IMG/VR virus record: IMGVR_UViG_3300036770_006954
Location: 107,630-171,629 of that record
DNA length: 64,000 nucleotides
Strand: one strand, 5' to 3'
Source of the DNA: a virus
Below the pieces are notes generated by a model. It did not search any database and had not been told where the DNA came from. It saw nothing but the letters and a program-made list of their open reading frames with translations. Made by a program: the position numbers and the translations under genes. Of the stretch, positions 32,467-34,616 are shown in pieces (position 1 is the first letter of the stretch; each line of letters starts with the position of its first letter).

Positions 32467-32572
32467 AAGTCAAGACAGGAATCGAACCTATTTTACCGCG
32501 TACATAGCCTAACACTAAAAGTTCGTTTGACTACCTCTTTAACCTACGATTACGAGCCACTCGCTCTTGACT
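32467..32572 (-). ncRNA. AGUCA-family tRNA-like RNA (106 nt)
   Basis: AGTCAAG/CTTGACT-T acceptor, ATAGG-TTCGATT-CCTGT T-arm, non-tRNA interior. Confidence 0.75.
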
Positions 32573-32577
32573 AAATT

Positions 32578-32645
32578 ACCCGTCTTTCCAGGCTGTCAAC
32601 AACTTATGTGTTAGCCTCACACATCAATCACTAGGTTGTCAGCTT
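32578..32645 (-). ncRNA. Small structured RNA, UGACAGC/GAAAGA motif copy A
   Basis: GACAAC..GTTGTT stem then TGACAG CCTG-GAAAGA-CGGG. Confidence 0.55.
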
Positions 32646-32647
32646 TG

Positions 32648-32732
32648 TAGTCAGGACAGGATTCGAACCTGTAACTTTCGTAGATACCTTTCTGGCTCTC
32701 CCTACTGCGTATTCCTTTTTCGCCACCTGACT
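32648..32732 (-). ncRNA. AGUCA-family tRNA-like RNA (85 nt)
   Basis: AGTCAGG/CCTGACT-A, GCG/CGC D-stem, 16-nt anticodon loop, ACAGG-TTCGAAT-CCTGT. Confidence 0.8.
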
Positions 32733-32778
32733 AAAGTTAGTTTTCGGGACATTGGACAAAACTAACAAACCCTAAAAG

Positions 32779-32918
32779 TAATCGGGGTGGGAATTGAACC
32801 CACTCTAAAGGACGGTCCCTTTCTCAGTCACACAAGGTAATTACTCCTTGCTACACCTACCGTGTAATGCTTTGTGGCCACTCCACATTACCAAATGTCA
32901 ACCATAGACATCCCGATT
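32779..32918 (-). ncRNA. 140-nt RNA with tRNA acceptor stem and T-arm
   Basis: AATCGGG/CCCGATT-A, GTGGG-TTCAATT-CCCAC, multi-hairpin interior. Confidence 0.75.
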
Positions 32919-32923
32919 ATGTT

Positions 32924-33010
32924 GCCTGTCTCTCCAAGCTGTCATACCTCCCTTGTATTCTGTTCTGGCATATAGCCGTTCCTAACGGTAAAGCGGTATC
33001 AAAAACCAGT
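32924..33010 (-). ncRNA. Small structured RNA, UGACAGC/GAGAGA motif copy B
   Basis: ATACC..GGTAT stem then GACAG CTTG-GAGAGA-CAGG. Confidence 0.55.
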
Positions 33011-33013
33011 ATG

Positions 33014-33103
33014 TAGTCAGGACAGGACTCGAACCTGTACGAATGTTCCTTTCCCCGCAGACATAAAGTACAACGGTGCGCCTACCAATTACGCCACCTG
33101 ACT
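33014..33103 (-). ncRNA. AGUCA-family tRNA-like RNA (90 nt)
   Basis: AGTCAGG/CCTGACT-A, GCG/CGC D-stem, enlarged anticodon loop, ACAGG-TTCGAGT-CCTGT. Confidence 0.8.
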
Positions 33104-33111
33104 ATAATAAA

Positions 33112-33313
33112 ATGGAAACCCCCCCTCTACGCTCACCGTAGTTGTGAATTTTACTGGACATAGTTTACTGTCCACCTGTTGCGAGTCGACTGCAGAGCAG
33201 GGTCCATCACAGAGTACCTTGGGGCATGTACAACTTCTTTATGGTTGCGACCCATTTGAAGCCAAGGTTCCTTTCAACGGTGCTAATCCGTCTTCTGTAA
33301 GGAGTTTTTCCAT
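33112..33313 (-). ncRNA. ~200-nt structured RNA of unknown family
   Basis: Closing helix ATGGAAA../..TTTCCAT; internal ACCTTGG/CCAAGGT, ACAGA/TCTGT, TGGACA/TGTCCA. Confidence 0.55.
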
Positions 33314-33317
33314 TTTG

Positions 33318-33415
33318 TGGTGTGAGCGGGATTCGAACCACGCGGCACAGTCTTTTTCACGGACTTGCTCTACCATGGGAGTATCATATGAGTACTCCAC
33401 CTGAGCTATCACACC
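33318..33415 (-). tRNA. tRNA-Phe(GAA) with hairpin inserted in the D-loop
   Basis: GGTGTGA/TCACACC; loop GT-GAA-AA; D-loop contains GGAGTA-CTCATATGA-TACTCC. Confidence 0.75.
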
Positions 33416-33421
33416 TTATTG

Positions 33422-33502
33422 TACAGAGGGTGGGACTCGAACCCACACATCTTACGATACCGGTTCCTAAGACCGGCGCGGCTACCGTTACGCCACCTCT
33501 GC
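33422..33502 (-). tRNA. tRNA-Leu(UAG)
   Basis: CCGGT CT-TAG-GA ACCGG. Confidence 0.93.
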
Positions 33503-33507
33503 ATTGA

Positions 33508-33655
33508 GTTAGTAGTAGTTGACTTTATCAGGAATCCCGCCTAACCCCATTTAAGAAGTCCAGCTTCACACACCATTAGAGAGAGGGTTAATTCTTAGTG
33601 TGTACCCTTGCGATATGCTCTCCCATACCGTCAACCCACGCATTGTACTACCAAC
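33508..33655 (-). ncRNA. ~150-nt structured RNA of unknown family
   Basis: GTTGGTAGTA/TACTACTAAC and GTTGAC/GTCAAC closing helices; first element after promoter 33704-33711. Confidence 0.55.
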
Positions 33656-33673
33656 CGTTTGTTTTTTCCACCA

Positions 33674-33711
33674 TTTCAAAGACCTTTTGTCTTAACAACA
33701 CCACAAATATA
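33674..33711 (-). promoter_or_regulatory. TATATTTG promoter followed by boxA-like GGTCTTTGAAA
   Basis: Motifs read on the minus strand upstream of the ncRNA array. Confidence 0.6.
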
Positions 33712-33725
33712 TGGTAATATTTTTA

Positions 33726-34229
33726 TCAAACCAAATCTTTATGAAAAACTTTTTCTGAATTTTGTTCTACCCAAGACAAACTAATAGAAACATGTTTGGA
33801 AGATTCTTTCTTCGATGATTCAATTTTGGTTTTCACTATTTCCAAAACCTTATCAGTTGTACATTTCCAAATACCATTACAACTAAGTCCATCGTCTTTA
33901 TCAAACAAGGCAAAAAAGAATGCATCGTTTCTTTTAACCCTGTGAAGATTATCTTCATGGATTCTATCAAGTTGAAAACTACCACCTTCTTTACAAGAAA
34001 GGTACTCGTATTTTTCTTTCCCATCTTTAGAATATGCGTCAGCACCATGTTTTGTTTTATGACATTCATGACCAAGAATTTCGGAAACCATCCATTCTTT
34101 AATGAATCCTGGTGTTAACAGGTCTTGTTCAAACCCATTTTCCTTTTTGTATAGGTTTAGAGTCCCTACCAATAGAAGGAGGGGATTTTCTTGTTGTGTT
34201 ACCAAGTCGAGCAATTCATTTTGCGTCAT
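33726..34229 (-). CDS. PD-(D/E)xK restriction-endonuclease-like protein
   Basis: HGADAYSKDGKEKYEYLSCK resembles a PvuII-type active-site segment. Confidence 0.55.
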   Translation of the reverse strand: MTQNELLDLVTQQENPLLLLVGTLNLYKKENGFEQDLLTPGFIKEWMVSEILGHECHKTKHGADAYSKDGKEKYEYLSCKEGGSFQLDRIHEDNLHRVKRNDAFFFALFDKDDGLSCNGIWKCTTDKVLEIVKTKIESSKKESSKHVSISLSWVEQNSEKVFHKDLV

Positions 34230-34244
34230 AGGGTTGTATGTTAG

Positions 34245-34317
34245 TGGGCCCAGTAGGATTTGAACCTACAACCAACGGATTATGAGTCCGCTGCGCTAAC
34301 CGTTGCGCCATAGGCCC
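34245..34317 (-). tRNA. tRNA-Ile2(CAU) (lysidine type)
   Basis: GGGCCTA acceptor, CT-CAT-AA loop. Confidence 0.8.
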
Positions 34318-34363
34318 GTTATGTTGGTAAATTATAGAAAACCGAATCTATAATGTCAAATTG

Positions 34364-34436
34364 TACACCCTGAAGGACTCGAACCTCCGACATCTTGCAT
34401 GTAAGGCAAGCGCTCTACCATCTGAGCTAAGAGTGT
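34364..34436 (-). tRNA. tRNA-Val(UAC)
   Basis: CTTGC CT-TAC-AT GCAAG. Confidence 0.93.
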
Positions 34437-34510
34437 ATTTGCAGGATATCGCTTAACCTGCGGTGAGTGTACCTTTCACCTTGTTCCCTTGCGGTACTAC
34501 GATTTTTTTG

Positions 34511-34616
34511 AAGTCAGTACAGGTACTGCCCCTGTTGCTTGGTCTTTTGCTTAACAGAGTATTATCAATGACACTCTGTGAACCTCACCCACGAGTTACT
34601 TTTACTCTAACTGACT
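34511..34616 (-). ncRNA. AGUCA-family tRNA-like RNA (106 nt)
   Basis: AGTCAGT/ACTGACT-T, GAGT/ACTC D-like stem, ACAGG-GGCAGTA-CCTGT T-arm. Confidence 0.7.

What the first reader, a model, noticed from the sequence alone, without database searches (positions are those of the whole stretch)
32467..34616. Family of four tRNA-like RNAs sharing an AGUCA(G/A) acceptor stem and ACAGG/CCUGU T-stem but with unrelated interiors
Seen: 32467-32572, 32648-32732, 33014-33103 and 34511-34616 all start AGUCA, end UGACU plus a discriminator (U, A, A, U) and a CA(A) trailer like the true tRNAs here, and have T-stems A(C/U)AGG/CCUGU. None of the 26 canonical tRNAs in the window uses this acceptor. The D/anticodon halves differ completely: enlarged anticodon loops (about 13-16 nt) in two, multi-hairpin inserts in two. 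A conserved top half with a divergent bottom half is not the pattern expected from random pseudogene decay. Inference: the acceptor/T module is a processing and stability scaffold or a protein-recognition tag. The RNAs may act as decoys for anticodon nucleases or tRNA-sensing defences, as carriers of guide/antisense loops, or as non-ribosomal aminoacyl donors.
Basis: partly seen in the sequence, partly recalled or inferred. Interest (0 to 1): 0.86.

Follow-up and report, generated by a model that had tools for sequence, protein, structure and literature searches.

The report
Phage tRNA-Leu-shaped RNAs with swappable inserts
This uncultured lake phage carries five genes for RNAs that keep the upper body of a leucine tRNA but hold unrelated folded inserts where the anticodon should be; hundreds of uncultured phages share the frame and swap the inserts like cassettes, and what the inserts do is unknown.

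Summary
All four elements lie on the minus strand at the stated coordinates. They share the acceptor AGUCA(G/A)(G/U), the T-stem A(C/U)AGG/CCUGU and the N73-CA(A/U) trailer of the true tRNAs here. A fifth, diverged member lies at 32780-32918.

They are not decayed tRNAs. The same frame occurs in at least 120 uncultured viral contigs (171 copies, 54-191 nt). It occurs in no isolate phage and in no isolate bacterial genome.

The constant part is the whole top half of a bacterial tRNA-Leu: U8-A14, the covarying Levitt pair A15-U48, G18G19, the T-loop and A73. U(-1) and C74 are also conserved. The insert is hypervariable: 149 elements gave 123 unrelated insert clusters. Homologous inserts are 77-100% identical, show compensatory changes, and sit in unalignable flanks.

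In phages whose neighbouring proteins are 97-99% identical, the same site holds unrelated inserts, and the breakpoints lie inside the frame.

My reading: a tRNA-processing and stability chassis, possibly leucylatable, that displays exchangeable small-RNA cargo of unknown function.

The closest known RNAs are the T5 RNA1 and T4 RNAC/RNAD stable RNAs, also of unknown function.

This scan has already found the same family in at least eight other genomes.

The parts
32467..32572 (-). Element A, 106 nt. Acceptor AGUCAAG/CUUGACU, T-arm AUAGG-UUCGAUU-CCUGU, discriminator U, trailer CAA. The D-arm is reduced (CGAG-UGG-CUCG) and the insert is about 55 nt with several hairpins.
   Evidence: (tRNA model 14.9 bits). 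Position -1 is U. No relative of the insert was found among the loci fetched.
32648..32732 (-). Element B, 85 nt. Standard chassis: AGUCAGG, U8, D-arm GCGA..ACGC with GG, U48, ACAGG-UUCGAAU-CCUGU, CCUGACU, A73, trailer CAA. The central arm is GUAG(G)/(U)CUAC with a loop of about 18 nt.
   Evidence: Rfam tRNA 38.5 bits, cut-off 29; the minimum-energy fold is a cloverleaf, z -1.59..
32780..32918 (-). Fifth element (E5), 139 nt, not in the finding. Acceptor AAUCGGG/CCCGAUU, T-arm GUGGG-UUCAAUU-CCCAC, A73. It carries the same roughly 90-nt three-hairpin insert as an AGUCAGG-chassis element in L078 and L015.
   Evidence: aligned with L078, with the stem GUAAUG/CAUUAC against GUAACA/UGUUAC. Acceptor pairs 2 and 5 and T-stem pairs 49-51 differ by compensatory changes. 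(L015 79%, L078 87%). (z -2.29).
33014..33103 (-). Element C, 90 nt. Standard chassis with D-arm GCGUAAUUGGUAGGCGC, U48, T-loop UUCGAGU, A73, trailer CAU. The insert is a CCG/CGG stem with a loop of about 16 nt, followed by a purine-rich single strand.
   Evidence: tRNA 40.1 bits. ARAGORN calls it tRNA-Tyr on a weak anticodon arm. The ortholog in L082 is 94% identical over the element, with one insert difference, while the next 230 nt are 83% identical.
34511..34616 (-). Element D, 106 nt, a member of a conserved subfamily. D-arm GAGU-AAAAGUA-ACUC (no GG), T-loop GGCAGUA (no UUCG), core GUGGGUGA...CAAAAGACCAAGCA, and a variable terminal hairpin (here 9 bp). Acceptor AGUCAGU/ACUGACU, U73. It starts 3 nt after the tRNA-Lys discriminator.
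   Evidence: 13 relatives found by a scan with the T-arm only, and most have the AGUCAGG acceptor; consensus cloverleaf, with 8 of 19 pairs showing compensatory changes. (z -2.94).

Best explanation
Each element is a gene for a stable small RNA built on a tRNA-Leu 'chassis'. The chassis is the 7-bp acceptor stem, U8, the Leu-type D-arm, U48 and the T-arm. It folds into the elbow and acceptor limb of a tRNA.

The cell's tRNA machinery therefore treats the RNA as a tRNA. In tRNA arrays RNase P cuts at the 5' end. In stand-alone copies transcription starts exactly at A1. The 3' end is trimmed to N73-C74 and CCA is completed. The compact L-shaped corner protects the RNA from nucleases.

Members with A73, A15-U48 and G18G19 (B and C here) carry the complete bacterial leucine identity set. 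That set does not need an anticodon, so they may also be leucylated.

The insert replaces the anticodon and variable arms. It is the working part and differs from cassette to cassette. Cassettes are exchanged between phages by recombination inside the invariant chassis ends.

Shown: the anatomy, the conservation pattern, covariation, cassette replacement and restriction to phages.
Inferred: processing, stability and possible leucylation.
Unknown: what any insert binds or does. The fast turnover at fixed sites suggests a role in conflict between phage and host or between phages.
For: 1. Family size. Of these, 148 have the exact 5' partner. Lengths run from 54 to 191 nt.

2. tRNA core kept. U8-A14 occurs in 115 of 138 elements and A15-U48 in 107 of 138. 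G15 goes with C48 in 5 of 7 cases (Fisher p 1.2e-4). GG is in the D-loop in 134 of 148, and A73 occurs in 127 of 138. The 5' half best matches annotated tRNA-Leu genes in all 5,426 E. coli genomes. [quoted passage not shown] It also states that tRNA-Leu lacking both arms is still charged.

3. Processing marks. U is at -1 in 84% of elements (background 29%). C74 occurs in 98% and C75 in only 5%. The true tRNAs of this phage have the same N73-CA(A) trailer.

4. Own promoter. A Bacteroidota sigma-A -7 box TAnnTTTG ends 3-7 nt (mode 4) before +1 in 12 of 134 elements. The box occupies -12 to -5 (PMC9723704), so the transcript would start at A1.

5. Inserts are functional units. 149 elements gave 123 unrelated clusters. 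Homologous pairs are 77-100% identical while 80-nt flanks do not align. Compensatory changes are seen. Mean fold z is -0.53, p 1e-8.

6. Cassette swap. L024, L103 and L034 have flanking proteins 97-99% and 84-92% identical. They carry three unrelated inserts at one site, with breakpoints inside the chassis. A second group has terminase 98-99% identical. Of 27 pairs of loci with a neighbouring protein at least 90% identical, 21 have unrelated inserts.

7. Not a by-product of tRNA arrays. 46 of 69 loci of at least 8 kb hold no canonical tRNA.
Against: No insert matches an Rfam family, and no target was found, so the 'working cargo' is inferred only from conservation.

Insert folding is only modestly better than shuffles.

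A and D have U73. D also lacks the G18G19 and UUCG elbow contacts, so the leucylation part cannot apply to them.

The exact conservation of AGUCA/UGACU is stronger than processing alone requires. That hints at an unidentified sequence-specific partner.

My main sample fixed the 3' acceptor strand by design.
Confidence: 0.6

Rival explanations
1. Transcript punctuation only. The tRNA-like top half is kept as an RNase P and 3'-processing signal that cuts polycistronic phage transcripts, as tRNAs do in mitochondria. The interior is functionless filler that is free to change.
For: Many copies lie between genes of one strand inside late operons or tRNA arrays. U(-1) and C74 are conserved. The interiors share no common motif.
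Against: Homologous inserts are 77-100% identical where the flanks are unalignable and show compensatory changes. The same insert occurs on two diverged chassis. A cutting signal does not need the D-arm or the Levitt pair. Copies with a promoter placed to start at A1 need no 5' cut.
Confidence: 0.12
2. Decoys or sponges for tRNA-directed host factors. The chassis titrates LeuRS, a tRNA-modifying or tRNA-cleaving defence enzyme, or another acceptor/elbow-binding protein. The inserts vary to escape recognition.
For: The exact acceptor sequence and the Leu identity set are conserved. The family is restricted to phages. Turnover at fixed loci is fast, as at counter-defence loci.
Against: The inserts lack anticodon loops, so they cannot mimic targets of anticodon nucleases. 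No host tRNA with this acceptor was found in 185,579 species' genomes, nor in the 400 further Bacteroidota genomes sampled. No associated protein was found.
Confidence: 0.13
3. Real decoding tRNAs with odd anticodon arms (suppressor, frameshift or recoding tRNAs), or tRNAs with short introns that are removed.
For: ARAGORN of 149 elements tRNAs. A few short members look canonical, for example the 71-nt tRNA-Lys(UUU)-like elements of L023, L059 and L090.
Against: The called anticodons are scattered over ten amino acids and over 2- or 4-base 'anticodons'. Lengths run continuously from 54 to 191 nt. The insert borders cannot restore a 5-bp stem with a 7-nt loop. The window already holds normal tRNAs, including two tRNA-Leu with other acceptors.
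Confidence: 0.05
4. Decaying duplicates of one tRNA-Leu gene (pseudogenes).
For: The D-arm is of the Leu type. A and D have lost canonical D- or T-loop features.
Against: The top half is nearly invariant across at least 120 contigs. The D variant is itself conserved with covariation in 13 phages. Inserts are replaced rather than degraded, and they are conserved between phages.
Confidence: 0.03

Closest known systems
Phage T5 RNA1 (NC_005859 30501-30644, annotated 'tRNA-like stable RNA with unknown functions')
   Same: It lies in the phage tRNA gene region. It has an acceptor-like stem, a T-arm (GAAGG-UUCAACU-CCUUC) and the same Leu-type D-arm core CGGAAUUGGUAGACG. About 75 nt of hairpins sit in place of the anticodon and variable arms. 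Its function is unknown.
   Different: The acceptor and T-stem sequences differ. It is a single gene in an E. coli phage. No family with exchangeable inserts has been described. No match to the AGUCAGG chassis exists in 50,697 phage records.
Phage T4 RNAC and RNAD (species 1 and 2 stable RNAs)
   Same: They are small stable RNAs transcribed from the phage tRNA region, and their biological roles are unknown (PMC3014915). From memory, they have tRNA-like termini and are matured with the tRNAs.
   Different: I did not compare the sequences here. They are two fixed genes, not a hypervariable family. A Leu-type chassis is not documented for them.
Class II bacterial tRNA-Leu (Rfam RF00005)
   Same: Acceptor, D-arm, core tertiary pairs, T-arm and A73. 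B and C pass the Rfam cut-off. The leucine identity set is present.
   Different: There is no anticodon stem-loop and no regular variable arm. The interior is 10-130 nt of unrelated sequence. No consistent anticodon exists.
Engineered tRNA scaffolds for expressing recombinant RNA in bacteria (for example PMC3753655)
   Same: The design is the same: the tRNA acceptor, T and D arms are kept, the anticodon arm is replaced by the RNA of interest, and cellular tRNA processing and stability are exploited.
   Different: Those are man-made. Here the arrangement is natural, specific to phages and evolving by cassette exchange.
tmRNA and YrlA-type Y RNAs (tRNA-like domains joined to other RNA)
   Same: A tRNA-like acceptor/T module is fused to non-tRNA RNA. 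Phages of this group also encode tmRNA.
   Different: tmRNA has a G3-U70 alanine identity, a tag reading frame and pseudoknots. YrlA has a Ro60-binding helix. None of these features is present, and there are no Rfam hits.

Membership tests
tRNA (Rfam RF00005) as a structural family | Score at or above the curated cut-off (29 bits) for the cloverleaf model | tested here: met
   B scores 38.5 and C 40.1 bits. The feature is not met for A (14.9 bits) or D (no hit). Family members elsewhere score 31-46 bits.
Decoding tRNA | A 5-bp anticodon stem with a 7-nt loop (U33, purine 37) and a consistent anticodon among homologs | tested here: not met
   Loops are about 16-18 nt in B and C, and A and D have several hairpins. 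Across the family ARAGORN's anticodons are scattered or have 2 or 4 bases, and 111 of 149 elements are not called at all.
Bacterial tRNA-Leu identity (substrate of LeuRS) | A73, Levitt pair A15-U48, G18G19, U8-A14, intact D-loop/T-loop contacts (PMC9976931) | tested here: met
   All are present by sequence in B and C, and in 78-92% of the family. They are not met in A or D (U73), and D also lacks GG and UUCG.
Bacterial tRNA-Leu identity (substrate of LeuRS) | Actual leucylation | not testable with these tools
   This needs an aminoacylation assay or acid-gel Northern blots.
Phage stable tRNA-like RNAs (T5 RNA1 type) | tRNA-like acceptor, D and T arms with a large non-tRNA interior, encoded among phage tRNA genes | tested here: met
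   The anatomy of T5 RNA1 was read from the record and folded. A-D have the same layout and lie in a 27-tRNA region.
Phage stable tRNA-like RNAs (T5 RNA1 type) | Accumulates as a stable processed RNA in infected cells | not testable with these tools
tmRNA | G3-U70 pair, tag-peptide frame, pseudoknots; hit to RF00023 | tested here: not met
   Pair 3-70 is U-A. There is no tmRNA hit on the elements.
AGUCAGG tRNA-Leu-chassis family of uncultured phages (unnamed) | 5' AGUCAGG-UG-(Leu-type D-arm), 3' U-ACAGG-UUCGAnU-CCUGU-CCUGACU-A-C, with a variable interior | tested here: met
   B and C match exactly. A, D and E5 differ at paired positions by compensatory changes. D's relatives carry the standard acceptor.

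The most novel reading that the evidence does not exclude
The elements are a natural modular RNA-display system. A phage-specific tRNA-Leu chassis is made and stabilised, and perhaps leucylated, by host tRNA enzymes. It carries a large, horizontally exchanged repertoire of small effector RNAs, such as protein-binding decoys or aptamers aimed at host defence or at rival phages. The invariant chassis ends act as recombination handles for cassette exchange. That would make it an RNA counterpart of the hypervariable counter-defence gene islands of phages.
Probability: 0.3. Interest if true: 0.92.

Novelty: new variant of a known kind. Interest (0 to 1): 0.78.

Why it matters
Phage tRNA regions have been known for decades to encode 'stable RNAs of unknown function' (T4 RNAC and RNAD, T5 RNA1).

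This family shows that such RNAs can be a large, modular and fast-evolving class. One invariant tRNA-Leu frame carries well over a hundred different inserts, and near-identical phages have swapped inserts at the same site.

That pattern is typical of genes involved in conflict, and it makes the old question testable. There is now a defined chassis, defined cassettes and natural swap variants to compare.

If the RNAs are leucylated without any anticodon, they would also be a new kind of non-decoding aminoacyl-RNA.

The design matches the engineered tRNA scaffold used to express recombinant RNA. The natural versions could therefore supply ready-made stable scaffolds and new RNA binders.

Tried and rejected
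- Antisense or guide reading: the inserts of A-D and E5 have no complementary or identical match longer than 13 nt in the phage's own 171.6 kb (E at least 0.13).
- rRNA mimicry or pairing: 135 unique inserts against the 16S and 23S rRNA of a Bacteroidota genome gave nothing above shuffles (best 24.3 bits, against 24.3-30.2 in shuffles).
- Known RNA families: Rfam hits only tRNA on the elements, in the window and in 27 other loci.
- Common insert motif: no k-mer is strongly enriched.
- Obligatory partner protein: the commonest neighbouring protein cluster occurs in only 15 of 121 loci. It is a terminase. The others are a methylase, DUF932 and a phosphoesterase.
- Phage-encoded CCA-adding enzyme, class I aaRS or L/F-transferase in this record: none found. 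The record is only about 57% complete, so this says little.
- Mimic of a host tRNA: the 3' pattern occurs only in MAG contigs and in coincidental Streptococcus coding sequence. The 5' pattern occurs as a true element in none of the 400 other Bacteroidota genomes sampled, only in the seed MAG used as centre.
- Isolate phages: no match in 50,697 records.
- Literature: seven searches found no description of the family. The 2026 preprint on bacterial tRNA mimics concerns other RNAs.
- Internal T-arm-like hairpins in inserts: 3 of 138, against 0.15 expected. This was too few to build on.
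Full report
**Setting.** The window is bases 107630-171629 of a 171.6-kb IMG/VR virus record that CheckV rates about 57% complete. It encodes a portal protein and a T4-type large terminase. The nearest relatives of the terminase are a 484-kb uncultured phage and Flavobacterium phages, at about 27-29% identity. 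ARAGORN finds 27 tRNA genes. Those from 25.7 to 40.9 kb lie on the minus strand.

**Checking the observation.** Read on the minus strand, the four stretches begin and end exactly as described.
- A (32572->32467): AGUCAAG ... AUAGG-UUCGAUU-CCUGU-CUUGACU-U-CAA.
- B (32732->32648): AGUCAGG ... ACAGG-UUCGAAU-CCUGU-CCUGACU-A-CAA.
- C (33103->33014): the same acceptor, with T-loop UUCGAGU and trailer A-CAU.
- D (34616->34511): AGUCAGU ... ACAGG-GGCAGUA-CCUGU-ACUGACU-U-CAA.

The 12-mer CCTGTNYTGACT occurs four times in the whole record. All four copies are here and on one strand, and the reversed control has none. No canonical tRNA of the record uses this acceptor, and nearly all are followed by N73-CA(A/U) or N73-CU(A/U). 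Rfam's tRNA model passes B and C (38.5 and 40.1 bits, cut-off 29), gives A 14.9 bits and misses D.

A fifth element at 32780-32918(-) has the acceptor AAUCGGG/CCCGAUU and the T-arm GUGGG-UUCAAUU-CCCAC. It carries the same roughly 90-nt insert as an AGUCAGG-type element in locus L078. An insert stem has changed from GUAAUG/CAUUAC to GUAACA/UGUUAC. Its acceptor pairs 2 and 5 and T-stem pairs 49-51 differ only by compensatory changes. So the window holds five members.

**The family outside the window.** These hold 171 copies, and 148 have the perfectly complementary 5' heptamer within 260 nt. Lengths run continuously from 54 to 191 nt.

The 5' part was not fixed by the search, yet it is nearly constant: AGUCAGG-UG-GCGGAAU(U)GGUAGACGC. 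The base before the T-stem is U in 82% of elements.

The family is absent from 50,697 GenBank phage records. In one genome per species of 185,579 bacteria and archaea it occurs only on MAG contigs. These are mostly Bacteroidota bins, plus bins of implausibly mixed taxonomy that are probably mis-binned phage DNA. The Streptococcus hits are coincidental coding sequence. Among 400 further Bacteroidota genomes the 5' half occurs as a true element in none. So the family is specific to phages and does not copy a host tRNA.

**What the constant part is.** The 5' half best matches annotated tRNA-Leu genes in all 5,426 complete E. coli genomes. Across 138 non-redundant elements:
- U8-A14 occurs in 115.
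- The Levitt pair is A15-U48 in 107. G15 goes with C48 in 5 of 7 cases, against 9 C48 among 124 with A15 (Fisher p 1.2e-4).
- GG lies in the D-loop in 134 of 148.
- The discriminator is A in 127.

According to the identity review PMC9976931, E. coli leucine identity rests on A73, A15-U48, G18G19 and the D-loop/T-loop contacts. [quoted passage not shown] The review also states that tRNA-Leu variants lacking both arms are still aminoacylated. The chassis therefore keeps what LeuRS needs and drops what the ribosome needs.

The flanks carry marks of tRNA maturation. U is at -1 in 84% of elements (background 29%). C is at 74 in 98%, but C at 75 in only 5%.

In 12 of 134 elements a perfect Bacteroidota sigma-A -7 box TAnnTTTG ends 3-7 nt (mode 4) before position +1. 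In Flavobacterium this box occupies -12 to -5 (PMC9723704). These stand-alone copies would therefore be transcribed starting exactly at A1. This also points to Bacteroidota hosts.

**What the variable part is.** ARAGORN calls only 38 of 149 elements tRNAs, with anticodons scattered over ten amino acids or with 2 or 4 bases. All-against-all comparison of the interiors gives 123 unrelated clusters, and no shared motif emerges. Yet the inserts are not junk.
- Homologous inserts in different contigs are 77-100% identical, while the 80 nt on either side do not align. Examples are L019/L022, and C against L082.
- They show compensatory changes (L017/L065, L031/L115, L092/L104; E5/L078).
- They fold slightly but significantly better than shuffles (mean z -0.53, p 1e-8).

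Element D belongs to a well-defined subfamily, which I found by a scan that fixed only the T-arm. Thirteen sequences share the D-arm GAGU-AAAAGUA-ACUC, the T-loop GGCAGUA and the core GUGGGUGA...CAAAAGACCAAGCA, with a variable terminal hairpin. RNAalifold gives a cloverleaf in which 8 of 19 pairs, including acceptor pairs 3-7, show changes on both sides. No insert matches any Rfam family.

**Cassette exchange.** In one group of small phages the element sits between two late genes.
- L024, L111, L103, L119 and L034 have upstream proteins 97-99% identical and downstream proteins 80-93% identical.
- They carry three unrelated inserts (117-119, 90 and 160 nt), and L103 has a second element in tandem.
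- The DNA alignment is colinear up to about AGTCAGGTGG(C/T)GGAAT and again from the T-arm onward, so the breakpoints lie inside the chassis.

A second group (L038, L044, L077; terminase 98-99% identical) shows the same pattern just upstream of the terminase gene, including a recombination joint in the T-arm of a neighbouring tRNA-like gene. Of 27 pairs of loci with a neighbouring protein at least 90% identical, 21 have unrelated inserts.

No protein family accompanies the elements. The commonest neighbour occurs in 15 of 121 loci. In 46 of 69 loci of at least 8 kb there is no canonical tRNA gene at all. So the elements are independent genes and not a by-product of tRNA arrays.

**Mechanism.** The best-supported reading is a tRNA chassis that hands the RNA to the cell's tRNA maturation enzymes and makes it compact and stable, with an exchangeable insert as the functional part. 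For B and C leucylation is a concrete possibility. For A and D (U73; D also lacks the elbow contacts) it is not.

What the inserts do is unknown. I found no antisense target in the phage's own DNA and no mimicry of, or pairing with, Bacteroidota rRNA. The fast replacement at fixed sites resembles counter-defence or exclusion loci, but that is inference.

The rivals fare as follows.
- Pure transcript punctuation does not explain insert conservation, the conserved D-arm and Levitt pair, or promoters that start at A1.
- Decoding tRNAs and pseudogene decay are contradicted by the data above.
- A decoy role for the chassis itself remains possible.

**Comparison with what is known.** The T5 record annotates RNA1 (30501-30644) as a 'tRNA-like stable RNA with unknown functions'. 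Its sequence has an acceptor-like stem, the D-arm core CGGAAUUGGUAGACG, a T-arm, and about 75 nt of hairpins in between. T4 RNAC and RNAD are likewise small RNAs from the tRNA region with unknown roles (PMC3014915). The kind is therefore known. New here are the specific, widely shared chassis, the hundreds of members in uncultured phages that are probably Bacteroidota phages, and the cassette-like exchange of inserts. Literature searches found no description of this.

This scan has already reported the same family in at least eight other genomes, with the same reading. I took from those notes only the lead to T5 RNA1, which I checked myself.

**Limits.**
- There is no expression data.
- The main sample fixed the 3' acceptor strand, so acceptor conservation is best judged from the D-type set and from E5.
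- The host assignment is indirect.

Noticed in passing
window 34698-34977 (-): An RNase P-like RNA lies next to tRNA-Lys and element D. It gives a full-length match to Rfam RNaseP_arch (model 1-288) at 23.2 bits, E 5.5e-5, well below the gathering score of 84. The blocks GAGGAAACUC, AGACUAAUG and ACAGAAUCCUGGUUA align to conserved core regions. L056 7970-8075 is 73% identical to part of it. An earlier first-stage note had flagged it.
   Followed up: partly
window 33149-33211 (-), within a conserved block 33108-33339: A match to the Rfam freshwater-1 RNA scores 66 bits (gathering 72), E 1e-14, over the full model length. The surrounding 230 nt are conserved in L082 (83%) and L022 (78%), so the RNA may be longer than the Rfam motif.
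   Followed up: partly
window 33318-33415 (-): A tRNA-Phe(GAA)-like gene (Rfam tRNA 41.4 bits) has a 30-nt hairpin inserted in the D-loop. ARAGORN does not call it. A normal tRNA-Phe lies at 37924-37999.
   Followed up: no
window 32578-32600 and 32922-32945 (-): A small repeated hairpin, UGACAG-CCUG-GAAAGA-CGGG and UGACAG-CUUG-GAGAGA-CAGG, differs by a compensatory C-G to U-A change. It lies just 5' of element A and of the fifth element, which is 3' of B and C. L089 12694-12789 resembles the first copy.
   Followed up: partly
whole record: The tRNA genes of this phage do not encode CCA. Nearly all are followed by N73-C-A-A/U (some by N73-C-U-A/U). Family-wide, C74 occurs in 98% of elements and C75 in 5%.
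   Followed up: partly
L201 and L180 (viral contigs): The unusual T-arm ACAGG-GGCAGUA-CCUGU also occurs in what look like ordinary tRNAs (Ile-GAU-like and Val-UAC-like). In L201 it occurs together with the D-loop AAAAGUA. This suggests an alternative D-loop/T-loop elbow in some phage tRNAs.
   Followed up: no
window 24991-25067 (+): ARAGORN reports a tRNA with a four-base anticodon (uaau). Rfam tRNA scores it at 35.3 bits.
   Followed up: no
L109, L014, L078 (viral contigs with family members): These phages also encode tmRNA (49-69 bits). L014 has a group I intron (97.8 bits) next to the tmRNA gene.
   Followed up: no
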